64,000 nucleotides of DNA, taken from assembly GCA_041664605.1 (NCBI GenBank), contig JBAYKO010000001.1:83586-147585 (forward strand), in the 5' to 3' direction. The notes under the pieces were generated by a model. The model was given only the letters and a program-made list of their open reading frames with translations. It had not been told where the DNA came from and searched no databases. The DNA comes from Minisyncoccota bacterium. GTDB taxonomy: Bacteria; Patescibacteriota; Minisyncoccia; Phycocordibacterales; UBA9973. Position numbers and translations under genes: made by a program. Of the stretch, positions 35,100 to 38,597 are shown piece after piece (position 1 is the stretch's first letter; every line of letters begins with the position of its first letter).

Positions 35100-35660
35100 T
35101 TAGTAATAATATCCTCCCTTTACTTTAAATTTCTTTTTATCAAAAGTTACTACCATATACCAGTTCCAGGATACGGTCTTATCATCTTTTCCCACGAAAT
35201 CAAACCATATTCTTGGAAATATTTCTTTATTAATCCACCTTTCTGGTTCTTCTGACGCAGGATCGACAATAATTATATTTTTATCAGTTACATTTACAAC
35301 AACACTATAATGATCATCATTTTCATCAAACCAACCAATAATAACCGGTAATTTTTCTTCACGAATAAAATATTCCAATTCTTCTATTGATCCGTTTTCT
35401 TTTACATAAACAAAGCCACCAATTTCTTTTATGGCCTGGATCATTCCTTCATGCTCTGTCCCCTCACCTCTTCCCATTCCTGAAATACTACAAGCAACAT
35501 TAGCTAACTGTTCTTCTGTGTGATTTTTACCAAAATATGAAAGTAAAATTTTTAAAGAGGCTGGACCACAAAGTCCCATTGATTGTTGAAAAGGTTCCAC
35601 TTTAATTTTCTGCTCATCTCTGTTTACTGTATTTAATTTTTTCTTTTTCTTCCACATCAT
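35100..35660 (-). CDS. Papain-like cysteine peptidase, C39-like (Peptidase_C39_2-type) domain protein
   Basis: Catalytic Cys in GLCGPASLKILLSYFG and His in DDHYSVVVNV, with Asp/Asn downstream. Confidence 0.6.
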   Translation of the reverse strand: MMWKKKKKLNTVNRDEQKIKVEPFQQSMGLCGPASLKILLSYFGKNHTEEQLANVACSISGMGRGEGTEHEGMIQAIKEIGGFVYVKENGSIEELEYFIREEKLPVIIGWFDENDDHYSVVVNVTDKNIIIVDPASEEPERWINKEIFPRIWFDFVGKDDKTVSWNWYMVVTFDKKKFKVKGGYYY

Positions 35661-35763
35661 CCCATTAGAAATAGTTTATTTAAAACAAACTATATTTTTA
35701 CTCTGATAATTTAATCGCCTTTATTTTTAAAATTTTATTCCGCTAATTTCTAACGGGACAAGT
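35661..35763 (-). repeat. Start-codon-abutting inverted-repeat element, copy B (upstream of C39-like peptidase)
   Basis: Distal CTTGTCCCGTTAGAAATTAG (lacks the ATG). Proximal hairpin ATAGTTT...AAACTAT followed by TTTCTAATGGG then ATGATG. Confidence 0.7.
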
Positions 35764-35838
35764 AAATTTATTTTTTATAATCCCAGCACTAAAATTTTAA
35801 TTGTTCTAATAATTTTTTATTCTTATTCATCTATATAT

Positions 35839-36534
35839 CTACTTTTTATCTCTACTCAGATTATTTAAAAATTTAGTACGGGATAAATATTTTTTAATTA
35901 TTTGATCACCCCTCAAGTTTACCCAAGAATATTTCGCGTCTCCAGGATAAGCCCCGCCATGTTCTCTTCTTGTCTGTCTTTCTTTAGCCGAAGCAAAATC
36001 ATGCGCTGAATCATAAATCATCCCCTTTTTCATTAAATCTCTTTCATGTTGTTCATGAACTAATGTAAAAAATTTATCTTTCTCTCCTAAGCAGTTGTCC
36101 AACCAAATCTCATTTTGGGGAATATATTTATAAACATAATGATGGCCACCCATAACAAATTGTGGGTCTATATATTGTCTAATAATTGAACCTTCAACAT
36201 AACAAACTTTTAAACCTTCTATATTTTTTGTTCTTATATAAAAATTTGGTATTAGTCCTTTTTTACATAAAACTTTTTTTAAAAATTTACGGACATCTTT
36301 TACATTTTTACAACTCTTGGGAACTTTAGTATTTTTTAGTTTTATGAAAAAATCTAATTCTTCTTTAAAACAATAATCAAACCAAAATTTATTTTGAGGA
36401 ATATAAAATTTTGGATCATAAAAATCAGCTGGAGAATTTGTATATTCGTAAAAAACAGAAAAATCGTCATCTAGTGTTTGACGAATTAAAGCCCCATCCA
36501 CAAAGACTATATTTTCAATAGGTTTTTTCTGCAT
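35839..36534 (-). CDS. Hypothetical protein with internal tandem duplication (two about 60-aa repeats, YIPQNxxWxDxC motif)
   Basis: VFVDGALIRQTLD...FYIPQNKFWFDYC and CYVEGSIIRQYID...KYIPQNEIWLDNC align. His-rich HEQHERD segment. Confidence 0.5.
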   Translation of the reverse strand: MQKKPIENIVFVDGALIRQTLDDDFSVFYEYTNSPADFYDPKFYIPQNKFWFDYCFKEELDFFIKLKNTKVPKSCKNVKDVRKFLKKVLCKKGLIPNFYIRTKNIEGLKVCYVEGSIIRQYIDPQFVMGGHHYVYKYIPQNEIWLDNCLGEKDKFFTLVHEQHERDLMKKGMIYDSAHDFASAKERQTRREHGGAYPGDAKYSWVNLRGDQIIKKYLSRTKFLNNLSRDKK

Positions 36535-36573
36535 TAGCTCATTTTACCACAAAATAAGCCTGTAAACAACCCC

Positions 36574-37593
36574 TTAATTGTTTCTTTTTTCAGTGAGAAT
36601 TTCTAGAGCTTCTAAATATGATTTATCTAAAAGTTCAGAATTATATTCGAATCCATAAAGCTTTTTGAAAATTTCTGAAGGATCCACAACGGCTATTTTT
36701 ACTCCCTTGTCTTTAAGTATTCTTAAAACACGCAATTGTTCTTTAAACCACTCTTTTGCAATTATTGAAAATCTATCTAATTCTTCAGCTGTTTCTTTGA
36801 TTTGTTCTTTTTTATTTTTTGCATATTCTTTGTCTGGAGCAGTCAAATCTAGTTTTCCCACTTCTAACCAACCCATTCCCCTGTTTATCATGGATTGTTT
36901 AAATGTTTTTGCTGAAGGCAAGACATAAATTATCATGTTATATCCATTAGGAAGTCCATCTGATCCATTAAATCTTTTAAATTTATTTTCTTCTTCAATT
37001 TCTTCATCTAATCCGTGAACATCTTCTATTACATTAATATCTCCTTGCCAATCTTCTGGAATTGGAAAAATCTTTTCATAATCTCTATCCCATGAAATTA
37101 TTTTTTTATCTTTATACTTATCACTTAATTCTTTTGTTAAAACTCTTCGTGTTGTAGCTTTTCCTGAAATACCAATTCCTCCAACCAATAGTTGGAATGG
37201 CTTATTGTCTTTTTTAAAAAAATCATCTACTTCTTCAGAAATAGTATTAATTAGGTTTCCAAAATTACCAAACCTCTCTATTTTTTGACTCTTAAGTTCT
37301 TGGTTTTTATTTTCTATATAAAAACCTTTCTGAGGCATATTTTTATCAAGGACTACATTATTTTTTGACAACTGATTTAAAAACATTAGTTTCATTTCTT
37401 CTAATCTAAAATCCTTAGTATTCTCTTTTTTGTTTTTAAAATCTTTTAAATGTTTTTGAGTTAAATTAAACCATACATCATCTTGTTCTTCTTGAGACAA
37501 AGAAGATAGTTCCTTCCAAAGATCGGGGTTTAGACCTTCAAAAAACTCTTCTGTTTTATTTATTTGTACTTTATTTTCTATATTTTCTCGCAT
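36574..37593 (-). CDS. P-loop NTPase, kinase-like (Walker A VGGIGISGKATT)
   Basis: GxxGxGK[ST] motif after a roughly 130-aa N-terminal helical region. Resembles nucleoside/nucleotide- or zeta-toxin-type kinases. Confidence 0.5.
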   Translation of the reverse strand: MRENIENKVQINKTEEFFEGLNPDLWKELSSLSQEEQDDVWFNLTQKHLKDFKNKKENTKDFRLEEMKLMFLNQLSKNNVVLDKNMPQKGFYIENKNQELKSQKIERFGNFGNLINTISEEVDDFFKKDNKPFQLLVGGIGISGKATTRRVLTKELSDKYKDKKIISWDRDYEKIFPIPEDWQGDINVIEDVHGLDEEIEEENKFKRFNGSDGLPNGYNMIIYVLPSAKTFKQSMINRGMGWLEVGKLDLTAPDKEYAKNKKEQIKETAEELDRFSIIAKEWFKEQLRVLRILKDKGVKIAVVDPSEIFKKLYGFEYNSELLDKSYLEALEILTEKRNN

Positions 37594-37628
37594 ATTAATA
37601 AATTATTTTTTATTTAATAATTTTCCTA

Positions 37629-38597
37629 TTAACAACTTATTTTTTTTATCATTCCCAAAAGACCGTCTTGAGAAAGAGAAAATTGACTATATTTTAGATC
37701 TTCTTTATCTTTTGTAACTAATACATACCTAAGACAAAAAGATATGCTTCTCTCTAGTATTGCAAATTTAATAGCATTGATTAAATATTGTTTTTCTACC
37801 TGATTTAATTTTCTATGTTTTTGATAACCATTTATTAAGGCTTCAAAATTTTTATTATTCCATTTTTTCCAATTATTAACAAAACACCAACCACGACAGG
37901 CTTGTCCCAAATCTAAAATTAAATCCCCATAATAACTTCTATCAAAATCTACAATGCAAACGATTTTCTCTCCTTTCCAAAGAACATGTCTTTTCCCTAA
38001 GTCTTCATGAATCATTCCCTTTGGTAAATTAGATGGAAAATTTATTAAAGAAATTTCTTTTTGAAAATTATCTACAAATTTCTTTTTTTCAAGAAAGCTC
38101 CCTTTTAATATAAGTTTTTTATCTTCTTTAAAATTTTTCTTACTTTCCTCTAAATCCCATCTGTGTTTTCTTTTATAATTGGTTTTATAATTTTCCGTTA
38201 ATTTATGAAATCTGCCTAATAATTCACCGAATTTTTCTACTTCTTTTATAGTAGGGTTTAATTTTTCTTTGGCTTCAATAAACTCTCTTATATAACCAAA
38301 ATGTCCATTCCATGAGATTATCTGCTCGCCCTTTTTGTTATAGATTGCAGTCTTTACAGGAAAACTATTTTTTATTAAATAATTTAATAATTCTAATTCC
38401 GAAAAAATTTCTTCTTTAGAACGCCACCTTATTCCCAACGGAGAAAGACGAAAGAAATATTTTTTCAAATCAGTTTCAATAATATAAGAAATATTACCAC
38501 TGGTCGCTAATGGTTTTATCTTTTTTATTTGCTCTAAATCAAAATCTTTTAAAAGATTTTTAATTATGGCAATAGGCATTTTTTGTTTAATAAGCAT
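37629..38597 (-). CDS. APH/choline-kinase-family phosphotransferase (protein-kinase-like fold)
   Basis: Catalytic-loop-like IHEDLGKRHVLW and Mg-binding IVDFD, plus Brenner-motif region. Confidence 0.6.
   Translation of the reverse strand: MLIKQKMPIAIIKNLLKDFDLEQIKKIKPLATSGNISYIIETDLKKYFFRLSPLGIRWRSKEEIFSELELLNYLIKNSFPVKTAIYNKKGEQIISWNGHFGYIREFIEAKEKLNPTIKEVEKFGELLGRFHKLTENYKTNYKRKHRWDLEESKKNFKEDKKLILKGSFLEKKKFVDNFQKEISLINFPSNLPKGMIHEDLGKRHVLWKGEKIVCIVDFDRSYYGDLILDLGQACRGWCFVNNWKKWNNKNFEALINGYQKHRKLNQVEKQYLINAIKFAILERSISFCLRYVLVTKDKEDLKYSQFSLSQDGLLGMIKKISC

What the first reader, a model, noticed from the sequence alone, without database searches (positions are those of the whole stretch)
35100..38597. 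Co-directional cluster: APH-like kinase, P-loop kinase-like NTPase, tandem-duplicated repeat protein, C39-like cysteine peptidase
Four consecutive minus-strand genes of unknown role. (1) An aminoglycoside/choline-kinase-fold phosphotransferase (HEDL...RH, DFD). (2) A Walker-A protein (VGGIGISGKATT) with an N-terminal helical extension. (3) A protein made of two homologous about 60-aa modules (YIPQNxxWxDxC) with a His-rich HEQHERD segment. (4) After an inserted element copy, a papain-like C39-type peptidase (GLCGP...DHYSV). None is a housekeeping gene. The combination of two kinases, a peptidase and a repeat protein could be a small-molecule modification, immunity or conflict module.
Basis: partly seen in the sequence, partly recalled or inferred. 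Interest (0 to 1): 0.5.

Follow-up and report, generated by a model that had tools for sequence, protein, structure and literature searches.

The report
Two unrelated conserved gene pairs, side by side
The four genes are real, but they are two separate two-gene units that lie side by side only in this genome: a pair of small-molecule kinases, and a cysteine peptidase with an unannotated, duplicated metalloprotease-like partner that is also found in phages.

Summary
The window comes from a Candidatus Paceibacterota (Patescibacteria) MAG. All four minus-strand ORFs and their motifs are present as described. The four-gene linkage is not conserved. In 30 Patescibacteria loci anchored on the C39 orthologue, none has the APH or P-loop gene within 5 kb. 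In 22 loci anchored on the P-loop gene, none has the repeat protein or the C39.

Two pairs are tightly conserved instead.
- **Kinase pair.** The APH-fold kinase sits next to the P-loop protein in 18 of 22 loci. The other 4 are cut by a contig end. Two loci have the gene order swapped.
- **Peptidase pair.** The repeat protein sits directly upstream of a stand-alone C39 peptidase in 26 of 28 informative loci, usually overlapping it. The two are fused into one polypeptide in some lineages.

No defence-system model matches. The 178-nt gap before the C39 gene holds a lineage-specific repeated element. Substrates remain unknown.

The parts
37629..38597 (-). APH-fold (protein-kinase-like) small-molecule kinase, 322 aa. 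First gene of pair A. It starts 2 nt after the stop of the upstream TP_methylase-family gene (probably RsmI).
   Evidence: Pfam APH 1.7e-18. The best NCBIfam match is type II homoserine kinase at about 100-105 bits, far below the 256-271 cut-offs. The best PDB sequence hit is 2ppq, homoserine kinase, E 1.7e-11. Orthologues (48-64% identity) lie next to the P-loop gene in 18 of 22 loci.
36574..37593 (-). P-loop kinase-like protein, 339 aa. It has an N-terminal helical extension (residues ~13-79), a Walker A motif GIGISGKAT (139-147), DRDY (169-172) and EDVHGL (190-195). Second gene of pair A.
36250..36513 (-). Repeat protein, module 1 (residues ~8-95). This is the degenerate copy of the duplicated module. 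It keeps VDG..IR...D..F and YIP..E.W.D but has lost the HE..E and AH residues.
35959..36249 (-). Repeat protein, module 2 (residues ~96-192). It carries the invariant residues G129, G130, H131, H160, E161, E164 and H178, which form a candidate metal and catalytic site. H160-E164 lies at 36043-36057 and H178 at 36001-36003.
35839..35958 (-). Repeat protein, C-terminal extension (residues 193-231, G-x-[GA]-x-YPGD...YPW..LS..EII.KYYV) plus the stop codon. Among the rows shown, this extension is present only in the close, C39-associated subfamily and is absent from the other wide-family members.
   Evidence: Alignments. Tails across 26 loci.
35655..35768 (-). Degenerate copy of a repeated intergenic element. 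The 5' arm is GTCCCGTTAGAAAT and the 3' arm is ATTTCTAATGGG, which abuts the C39 start codon. It accounts for much of the 178-nt gap between two genes that overlap or nearly touch in most relatives.
   Evidence: (11 hits against 3.4 expected; 0 of 100 shuffles reach 11). Absent from 60 related loci. No Rfam match.
35100..35660 (-). Stand-alone cytosolic C39 (double-glycine-type) cysteine peptidase, 186 aa. Catalytic Q26, C31 (35568-35570), H117 (35310-35312) and D133. Conserved C-terminal tail K-G-G-Y-Y-Y at 35103-35120.
   Evidence: Pfam Peptidase_C39 7.4e-15 and C39_2 4.1e-9. The invariant catalytic residues and the tail appear in the 28-sequence alignment. The nearest solved relatives are the ComA peptidase domain, E 2.3e-6, and other PCAT peptidase domains. 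There is no hydrophobic segment long enough to span a membrane.
34802..34827 (.). G+C-rich hairpin followed by a T run, read on both strands. It is the first terminator-like site downstream of the C39 gene.
   Evidence: It belongs to a window-wide family of terminator-like hairpins (families D1 and I20).

Best explanation
The region holds two independent, conserved bicistronic units that happen to be adjacent in this Paceibacterota genome.

**Pair A (37629-38597 and 36574-37593): two soluble kinases.** One is an APH/ThrB2-like protein-kinase-fold enzyme. The other is a divergent P-loop kinase of the PanK, uridine-kinase, glycerate-kinase and zeta-toxin structural group. My inference is that they phosphorylate an unknown small hydroxylated metabolite, probably as part of salvage in an organism with almost no biosynthesis, either in sequence or as a complex.

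**Pair B (35839-36534 and 35100-35660): a two-peptidase unit.** The upstream protein is a pseudo-dimer made by tandem duplication of a mini-zincin-like (IrrE/M78- or SprT-like) module.
- Module 1 is degenerate.
- Module 2 keeps an invariant H-E-x-x-E...H site that probably binds a metal.
- A subfamily-specific C-terminal extension is present, and among the alignment rows shown it is absent outside the close, C39-associated subfamily.

The downstream protein is a catalytically complete, cytosolic, stand-alone C39 peptidase of the type that cuts after Gly-Gly. I infer that the two work together, probably as a physical complex, in site-specific processing of a cytosolic protein or peptide.

**Shown:** the gene pairs, the fusions, the duplication, the folds and the conserved residues.

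**Inferred:** metal binding, catalytic activity of module 2, formation of a complex and the nature of the substrate.

In this genome a lineage-specific repeated element lies between the two genes of pair B and runs right up to the C39 start codon.
For: **Independence of the pairs.**
- 0 of 30 C39-anchored loci carry APH or P-loop genes within 5 kb.
- 0 of 22 P-loop-anchored loci carry the repeat protein or the C39.
- The relative with the closest C39 (81% identity) has an unannotated 205-aa gene directly upstream of the C39, between dnaG/sigma-70 and HEPN/Fic genes, with no APH or P-loop product called.

**Pair A.**
- APH is adjacent in 18 of 22 loci. The other 4 are at contig ends.
- The order is inverted in L049 and L050 but adjacency is kept.
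- No third gene is conserved nearby.
- The fold evidence is, and the APH family evidence.

**Pair B.**
- The repeat protein lies directly upstream on the same strand in 26 of 28 informative loci. It usually overlaps the C39 gene.
- These loci span MAGs labelled Zambryskibacteria, Jorgensenbacteria, Uhrbacteria, Wolfebacteria and Andersenbacteria.
- No third gene is conserved nearby.
- Single polypeptides carry both domains: P0202, P0222 and P0236. The P0202 cluster includes Peribacteria proteins.
- The C39 catalytic Q, C, H and D residues are invariant.
- The duplication is shown.
- The spacing H-x3-E-x13-H also draws weak hits to the DtxR metal-binding domain.
Against: - No substrate is identified for either pair.
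- Two C39 loci (L022, L025) lack an adjacent repeat-protein gene.
- Five C39 orthologues lack the GG-YYY tail, so the tail is not essential.
- For pair A, two kinases in one operon do not by themselves prove a shared pathway.
Confidence: 0.6

Rival explanations
1. One reading: all four genes form one functional module (two kinases, a peptidase and a repeat protein) for small-molecule modification, immunity or inter-genomic conflict.
For: In this genome the four genes are co-directional. The gaps are short (35 and 39 nt), apart from the 178-nt gap that holds the element, and no terminator-like site lies on their own (minus) strand between them. They may therefore be co-transcribed here.
Against: The four-gene arrangement is found in none of 52 related loci nor in the relative with the closest C39. 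Each pair occurs alone in varied housekeeping contexts. There are no PADLOC hits and no compositional anomaly. Long co-directional gene runs are the norm across this window.
Confidence: 0.04
2. Pair B is a toxin-antitoxin or toxin-immunity pair. The cytosolic C39 peptidase would be a toxin that cuts an essential protein at a Gly-Gly site, as the CDI and T6SS C39 toxins StbD-CT and Cpe1 cut GyrB and ParE. The upstream protein would neutralise it.
For: The architecture resembles a TA module: an upstream, overlapping and less conserved partner (about 42% against about 65% identity), two genes only, and variable genomic contexts. C39 toxins with dedicated immunity proteins, and cis auto-cleavage after Gly-Gly, are documented (bioRxiv 10.64898/2026.05.07.723447). 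In two close relatives, HEPN and Fic genes lie nearby.
Against: - The C39 is unusually well conserved (58-81% identity among the best 120 clusters, from MAGs labelled as several different candidate phyla), unlike fast-evolving conflict genes.
- Only one copy is present in this window.
- The partner keeps invariant enzyme-like residues.
- The two are fused in single polypeptides.
- The solved structures nearest in sequence are transporter-type ComA and PCAT domains, and no chain labelled as a StbD or Cpe1 toxin appears among hits up to E 10.
- There is no PADLOC match.
Confidence: 0.17
3. The C39 peptidase is a leader peptidase for a secreted bacteriocin, RiPP or signalling peptide, as in PCAT transporters, and the repeat protein is a modification or accessory enzyme.
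For: The closest solved relatives are double-glycine leader peptidase domains of ComA, LahT and PCAT1 type. JGI annotation carries that transporter name.
Against: The peptidase has no ABC transporter domain and no hydrophobic segment long enough to span a membrane. No gene other than the two is conserved nearby in 30 loci, so there is no shared transporter or precursor-peptide gene. The only small ORF downstream in the window overlaps a terminator hairpin.
Confidence: 0.07
4. Pair A is a resistance or amino-acid biosynthesis function: either an aminoglycoside/macrolide phosphotransferase or a type II homoserine kinase, with an unrelated ATPase next to it.
For: Pfam APH. The best NCBIfam and PDB hits are type II homoserine kinase.
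Against: Scores are about 40% of the equivalog cut-offs. The catalytic loop is a family-specific variant, HEDLGKRH. The tight linkage to a P-loop kinase, which survives a change of gene order, argues for a joint function, and neither resistance kinases nor ThrB are known to need such a partner (my own knowledge).
Confidence: 0.08

Closest known systems
Peptidase family C39: double-glycine leader peptidase domains of PCAT/AMS ABC transporters (ComA, LahT, PCAT1)
   Same: The papain-like fold family is the same. Pfam C39 is matched above its cut-off, the Gln, Cys, His and Asp catalytic residues are invariant, and sequence similarity to the ComA peptidase domain is detectable.
   Different: This protein is a free 165-220-aa cytosolic protein with no transporter. 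It is partnered with, and sometimes fused to, a zincin-like protein instead. It has a conserved C-terminal K-G-G-[YH]-Y-Y tail. No leader-peptide substrate is known.
C39 peptidase toxins StbD-CT and Cpe1 with their immunity proteins
   Same: Both are soluble C39 domains that act in the cytosol, encoded next to a dedicated partner protein. The toxins auto-cleave after Gly-Gly in cis, which suggests a role for the GG-YYY tail here.
   Different: The toxins sit at the C-terminus of CdiA or PAAR delivery proteins, and their small immunity protein is a five-stranded beta-sheet with two helices. Here the partner is a 200-230-aa duplicated zincin-like protein encoded upstream, the peptidase is highly conserved, and no chain labelled as such a toxin appears among the PDB sequence hits.
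IrrE/ImmA (Peptidase M78, COG2856) and SprT-like mini-zincins, including CBASS CapP
   Same: A module of about 100 aa in which a strand is followed by an active-site helix starting with H-E and a second helix that supplies a further ligand. Weak sequence and fold matches support this. The module is abundant in phages.
   Different: The motif is HExxE...H rather than HExxH...E. The module is tandemly duplicated with one dead copy. No Pfam threshold is reached. The partner is a cysteine peptidase rather than an Xre-type repressor.
PanK type I, uridine kinase, PRK and glycerate 3-kinase (P-loop small-molecule kinases), and zeta/PezT toxins
   Different: No family model reaches threshold. The protein has a conserved N-terminal helical extension of about 85 aa (WF.LTQKHLKDY). 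Position 8 of Walker A is Ala, followed by Thr. It is obligatorily linked to an APH-fold kinase.
Type II homoserine kinase (ThrB2), CotS and amicoumacin kinase branch of the APH superfamily
   Same: This is the best-scoring branch, with full-length alignment and the DFD metal-binding motif.
   Different: Scores are far below equivalog cut-offs, and the catalytic loop is HEDLGKRH instead of HxDxxxxN. The substrate is unknown.

Membership tests
Peptidase C39 (Pfam PF03412) | Profile match above the curated cut-off | tested here: met
   55.4 bits against a cut-off of 22. PF13529 also matches at 37.6 against 24.
Peptidase C39 (Pfam PF03412) | Catalytic Cys and His, plus the oxyanion Gln and the orienting Asp | tested here: met
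   Q26, C31, H117 and D133 are invariant in 28 orthologues.
PCAT/AMS bacteriocin exporters | C39 domain fused to a membrane ABC transporter, with a GG-leader precursor gene nearby | tested here: not met
   The protein is 186 aa with no hydrophobic segment long enough to span a membrane. No gene other than the repeat protein and the C39 is conserved nearby in 30 loci, so no transporter or precursor gene is shared. NCBIfam exporter models score 17-28 bits against cut-offs of 500-853.
Peptidase M78 / IrrE-like zincins | HExxH zinc-binding motif | tested here: not met
   The invariant motif is H160-E161-x-x-E164, with H178 downstream.
Peptidase M78 / IrrE-like zincins | Profile match above the curated cut-off | tested here: not met
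   The window protein has no hit. The best relative scores 20.6 bits against a cut-off of 22. Five of 47 members hit weakly.
Peptidase M78 / IrrE-like zincins | Zincin fold: edge strand, active-site helix and ligand helix | tested here: inconclusive
APH phosphotransferase superfamily (PF01636) | Profile match above the cut-off, catalytic Asp loop and DFD/DFG metal-binding motif | tested here: met
   67.7 bits against 23.2. HEDLGKRH at residue 197 and DFD at 217.
Type II homoserine kinase (NCBIfam TIGR00938 / NF003558) | Equivalog score cut-off | tested here: not met
   100.1 and 104.9 bits against cut-offs of 255.9 and 271.
P-loop small-molecule kinases (PanK, UK, PRK group) | Walker A motif plus kinase-type P-loop fold | tested here: met
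P-loop small-molecule kinases (PanK, UK, PRK group) | Membership in a specific curated family (PanK, Udk, PRK) | tested here: not met
   There is only a 14.6-bit hit to panK_bact, against a cut-off of 235. No Pfam hit.
Zeta/PezT toxin kinases | Pfam Zeta_toxin match, plus an epsilon/PezA antitoxin gene upstream | tested here: inconclusive
Known anti-phage defence systems (PADLOC-DB 2.0) | Any component model matched | tested here: not met
   No family matches any of the four proteins at E <= 0.1.
Type II toxin-antitoxin modules | Two-gene operon in which a toxic product is neutralised by the partner | not testable with these tools
   The architecture is compatible, but toxicity and neutralisation need experiments.

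The most novel reading that the evidence does not exclude
Pair B is an undescribed, self-contained two-protease device of Patescibacteria. In this reading, a phage-derived, duplicated mini-zincin with a non-canonical HExxE...H site was domesticated and coupled to a free double-glycine cysteine peptidase. The peptidase's own K-G-G|Y-Y-Y tail, or the partner's G-x-G-x-YPGD extension, acts as a built-in pseudo-substrate or auto-processing switch. The pair would mature or destroy a specific cytosolic target. The wider module family (about 2,400 clusters at 50% identity, present in jumbo phages and giant multidomain phage proteins) would then be a new class of metallopeptidase-like effector.
Probability: 0.15. 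Interest if true: 0.65.

Novelty: new variant of a known kind. Interest (0 to 1): 0.42.

Why it matters
Patescibacteria make up a large share of bacterial diversity, yet most of their conserved genes have no assigned function. Splitting this cluster correctly gives two clean, testable units.

- **Peptidase pair.** It joins a well-known protease type (C39), here freed from its usual transporter, to a large protein family with no Pfam match here and no solved relative detected. That family also occurs in phages and in giant multidomain phage proteins.
- **What it would show if both are active.** The double-glycine peptidase would have an intracellular role in processing or regulation beyond peptide export and toxin delivery. 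It would also define a new zincin variant.
- **Kinase pair.** It is a candidate salvage step in organisms that depend on their hosts for metabolites.

Neither pair is a defence system on present evidence, so the finding matters more for annotation and enzymology than for conflict biology.

Tried and rejected
1. **Defence or immunity module.** PADLOC gave nothing for any of the four proteins. PHROGs gave only marginal hits.
2. **A third conserved partner.** All-against-all clustering of flanking ORFs found only the two genes of each pair. The other recurrent clusters were antisense shadow ORFs.
3. **An M14/AstE-AspA carboxypeptidase as a general third component.** The idea came from one fusion (P0234) and one nearby gene in a Peribacteria locus. 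tblastn found it in no other locus and not in the window.
4. **Co-variation between the C39 GG-YYY tail and the partner's YPGD extension.** No consistent pattern appeared across 26 pairs.
5. **The invariant GG-H in module 2 as a C39 cleavage site.** It lies in a predicted strand (129-131). The first module of the wider family has the related F-G-Q-H at the same position. The -7 and -12 positions do not fit the double-glycine leader consensus as I recall it. I treat it as structural or catalytic.
6. **Sequence searches of the PDB with profiles of the repeat protein.** Searches gave only chance hits. The same was true for the P-loop family.
7. **The afdb50 fold library** was unavailable.
8. **C39 orthologues in viral contigs.** None were found. 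None of the four-gene set lies near the viral repeat-module genes.
9. **Literature searches** for C39 together with Patescibacteria or CPR, and for stand-alone C39 peptidases, found no description of this pair.
10. **The intergenic element as a known RNA.** No Rfam match, even at E <= 1.

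
Full report
**Source and setting**

The repeat protein, the P-loop protein and the C39 peptidase are each 100% identical to proteins of a Candidatus Paceibacterota MAG. The first two carry locus tags WDK96_00670 and WDK96_00675, and the contig is 168 kb. The window has about 30% G+C throughout, and the region of interest (0.26-0.29) does not stand out. 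The neighbours are ordinary genes:
- On the upstream side (higher coordinates): a TP_methylase-family protein (probably RsmI) whose stop lies 2 nt before the APH start, tRNA-Ile, an RRM-like RNA-binding protein and a release factor.
- On the downstream side: a DUF4015 protein and an S41 peptidase.

Four consecutive minus-strand ORFs occupy exactly the stated coordinates, and every quoted motif is present.
- Protein 1 is an APH-superfamily member (Pfam 67.7 bits).
- Protein 4 is a C39 peptidase (55.4 bits).
- Protein 3 is an internal duplication. BLASTP of one half against the other gives E 3e-9, and the profile-profile comparison gives 99.9% probability over 99 columns.

None of the four has a hydrophobic segment long enough to span a membrane.

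**The four genes are two units, not one**

I anchored on each poorly annotated gene and looked at relatives.

*Repeat protein and C39.*
- In three relatives, the repeat-protein homologue was immediately followed by, and overlapped, a stand-alone C39 gene. The three genomic contexts were different, and no APH or P-loop gene lay next to the pair.
- A scan of species-representative genomes with a C39 alignment returned 30 Patescibacteria loci.
- tblastn and HMM searches found the repeat protein directly upstream on the same strand in 26 of them.
- Two loci have no upstream DNA. Two (L022, L025) have a C39 next to ribosomal-protein genes with no repeat protein nearby.
- None of the 30 has an APH or P-loop gene within 5 kb.

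*P-loop protein and APH.*
- Three look-ups of P-loop homologues showed an APH gene directly upstream each time, again in three different contexts.
- A metagenome scan added 19 loci.
- APH is adjacent in 18 of the 22 loci. The other 4 are cut by contig ends.
- In L049 and L050 the order is reversed but adjacency is kept, which is good evidence for selection on the linkage.
- None of the 22 carries the repeat protein or the C39.

*Further checks.*
- The relative with the closest C39 (81% identity) has an unannotated 205-aa gene directly upstream of the C39, lying between dnaG/sigma-70 and HEPN/Fic genes, with no APH or P-loop product called nearby.
- Clustering of all flanking ORFs found no third conserved gene for either pair.
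- The neighbouring genes are true orthologues: C39 64-67% and APH 48-63% identical to the window proteins.

**Pair A**

The APH-fold protein is nearest to type II homoserine kinase (NCBIfam about 100-105 bits; PDB 2ppq E 1.7e-11) but far below the equivalog cut-offs. It has a family-specific catalytic loop, HEDLGKRH.

The P-loop family is strongly conserved (55% mean column identity). Invariant motifs are GIGISGKAT, DRDY.K.FP, EDVHGL, R..G, RG..W...GK.DLT, and WF.LTQKHL in the N-terminal helical extension. From my own knowledge of uridine-kinase and PanK enzymes, DRDY corresponds to their D-x-[FY] substrate and base motif, and IIEDVHG to their hhEG strand. This is an inference. Seventeen of 27 members also give weak Zeta_toxin hits.

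The most economical reading is two small-molecule kinases working on one pathway or as one complex. The substrate cannot be named from these data.

**Pair B: the peptidase**

The stand-alone C39 family has at least 205 clusters at 90% identity. Among the best 120, identity to the query is 58-81%.
- Q26, C31, H117 and D133 are invariant.
- Its nearest solved relatives are the double-glycine peptidase domains of ComA and other PCATs.
- Most members end in K-G-G-[YH]-Y-Y.
- A 2026 preprint shows that a soluble C39 toxin domain cleaves GyrB and ParE within a conserved HAGGK motif and auto-processes in cis after Gly-Gly. The tail here could therefore be a pseudo-substrate or a self-processing site. 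That is a hypothesis. Five orthologues lack the tail.

**Pair B: the repeat protein**

- The word-indexed search found only 23 homologues.
- An exhaustive HMM search found 2,446 representative clusters, 1,757 of them at E <= 1e-10.
- No Pfam model covers the module.
- In the wider family both modules are clear: VW.VDG..[IV]R...D..F[TV].[FG]G[QH]H...[FY]IP..E.WID.....E......HE..ER.LM..G..Y..AH..A...E...R.
- Module 2 carries invariant G129, G130, H160, E161, E164 and H178, and H131 is nearly invariant.
- Module 1 keeps only H...E without the Glu next to the His and without the later His, so it looks like a dead copy.
- Foldseek against viral models gives one clear homologous segment inside a 1,019-aa viral protein (E 2e-8). 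It is followed by a run of about 100-aa phage proteins annotated as IrrE-N-like, SprT-like or metallopeptidase, at E 0.02-0.1 and probability up to 0.99.
- At sequence level, a relative hits Pfam Peptidase_M78 over the strand plus the HE helix at 20.6 bits, against a cut-off of 22. Five of 47 members hit M78, and another relative hits the PHROG 'metallo-protease' family.
- The H-x3-E-x13-H spacing also attracts weak hits to the DtxR metal-binding domain.

I therefore read the protein as a duplicated mini-zincin-like module with a non-canonical HExxE...H site. Whether it is catalytic is not shown.

**Functional link within pair B**

Beyond adjacency, single polypeptides carry both domains: P0202, P0222 and P0236. 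The P0202 cluster includes Peribacteria proteins, and in that lineage the fusion gene sits between a Glycos_transf_4 family gene (MraY/WecA-type) and rplI.

Other fusions of the module are with:
- an AstE/AspA-type M14-like hydrolase,
- a PI3/4-kinase-like domain,
- KTSC,
- a 2H phosphoesterase / RNA ligase domain,
- topoisomerase IB plus SET.

In IMG/VR the module occurs in at least 31 viral contigs, including genomes of 260-405 kb. It appears as single-module proteins, two-module proteins and parts of open reading frames of 1,169 to about 2,760 aa. One two-module homologue in a Paceibacterota MAG lies in a run of small genes without Pfam matches, beside a DNA methyltransferase, which looks prophage-like.

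The C39 itself was not found in viral contigs. Among the alignment rows shown, the C-terminal extension (G-x-[GA]-x-YPGD...YPW..LS..EII.KYYV) is restricted to the close, C39-associated subfamily.

**The inserted element**

In most relatives the two genes of pair B overlap or lie within a few tens of nucleotides. Here they are 178 nt apart. The gap contains one of five copies in the window of an element with arms (G)TCCCGTTAGAAAT and ATTTCTAAYGGG.
- The second arm always abuts a start codon. The five genes are the C39, a release factor, recR, a PBP2/FtsI-like gene and an L9-like gene.
- RNAalifold predicts a 14-bp long-range stem with one compensatory pair.
- In four copies, the 5' arm forms codons 3-6 of a 13-15-codon mini-ORF (MSPVRN...). 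In the PBP copy, the three changes that break the stem are a Val-to-Ala change plus a synonymous Arg change.
- The copy in front of the C39 lacks the ATG and looks degenerate.
- The arm sequence is absent from the 60 loci fetched up to that point, and the element is not in Rfam.

The element is therefore a recent, lineage-specific insertion in this operon and is not part of the conserved pair.

**Verdict**

- The single-module interpretation is not supported.
- The region consists of a conserved two-kinase pair and a conserved pair made of a zincin-like protein and a C39 peptidase. The two pairs are juxtaposed only in this genome.
- The peptidase pair is the more novel part. It has no Pfam match here, no solved relative detected, gene-fusion support and a phage connection.
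- Its mechanism is inferred rather than shown, and a toxin-antitoxin reading remains open.

Noticed in passing
window 10495-10646 (-), 14793-14941 (+), 31884-32014 (-), 35655-35768 (-), 42311-42441 (-): There are five copies of a 110-150-nt element. Its 14-nt arms (GTCCCGTTAGAAAT and ATTTCTAAYGGG) can pair. The 3' arm always ends exactly at the start codon of a gene: recR, a PBP2/FtsI-like gene, an L9-like gene, the C39 and a release factor. Each copy also has its own variable local hairpin just before the 3' arm. The motif is enriched (11 hits against 3.4 expected). There is no Rfam match, and the arm sequence is absent from the 60 loci fetched up to that point.
   Followed up: partly
window 42441->42397 (-), 10646->10605 (-), 14793->14834 (+), 32014->31967 (-): In four of the five element copies, the 5' arm is codons 3-6 of a 13-15-codon mini-ORF: [41 protein letters not shown] and MNPVRSRDRNLNNKQ. 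In the PBP copy, the base changes that break the stem keep the peptide (Val to Ala plus a synonymous Arg change). This suggests a leader peptide whose translation would open a stem that covers the downstream initiation region. The mini-ORFs have no obvious Shine-Dalgarno sequence and may be leaderless.
   Followed up: partly
window 41342-42409 (-): The mechanically listed 355-aa release-factor ORF starts inside the repeated element. The real start is probably the ATG at 42316 ([10 protein letters not shown]...), directly after the 3' arm.
   Followed up: partly
window 1037-1109, 3171-3228, 24490-24562: A different repeat of about 60-90 nt (TTTTTAAAAGGTGCGACCTTAAAAGTTTTACACCCAAGGTCGTTCC...) occurs three times at 84-90% identity or complementarity, one of them inverted. 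I did not examine it.
   Followed up: no
L007 1929-3300 (Candidatus Pacebacteria MAG, GCA_017991375.1): A bAvd accessory protein and a reverse transcriptase, which are the hallmarks of a diversity-generating retroelement, lie about 2 kb upstream of the APH / P-loop pair in this relative.
   Followed up: no
L061 7372-12551 and L062 2754-3784: In the two contigs that carry the closest C39 (81% identity), HEPN, Fic, HTH and a 1,472-aa unannotated protein lie a few kb downstream of the peptidase pair. This conflict-type neighbourhood was not seen in the other loci.
   Followed up: no
L060 4789-7260: The fusion of the repeat module with an AstE/AspA (M14-like) hydrolase is encoded divergently from an S66 LD-carboxypeptidase. 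A lytic transglycosylase lies about 4.5 kb upstream and a D-Ala-D-Ala-ligase-like gene about 3.7 kb downstream. This hints at a link to cell-wall peptide turnover for that branch of the family.
   Followed up: partly
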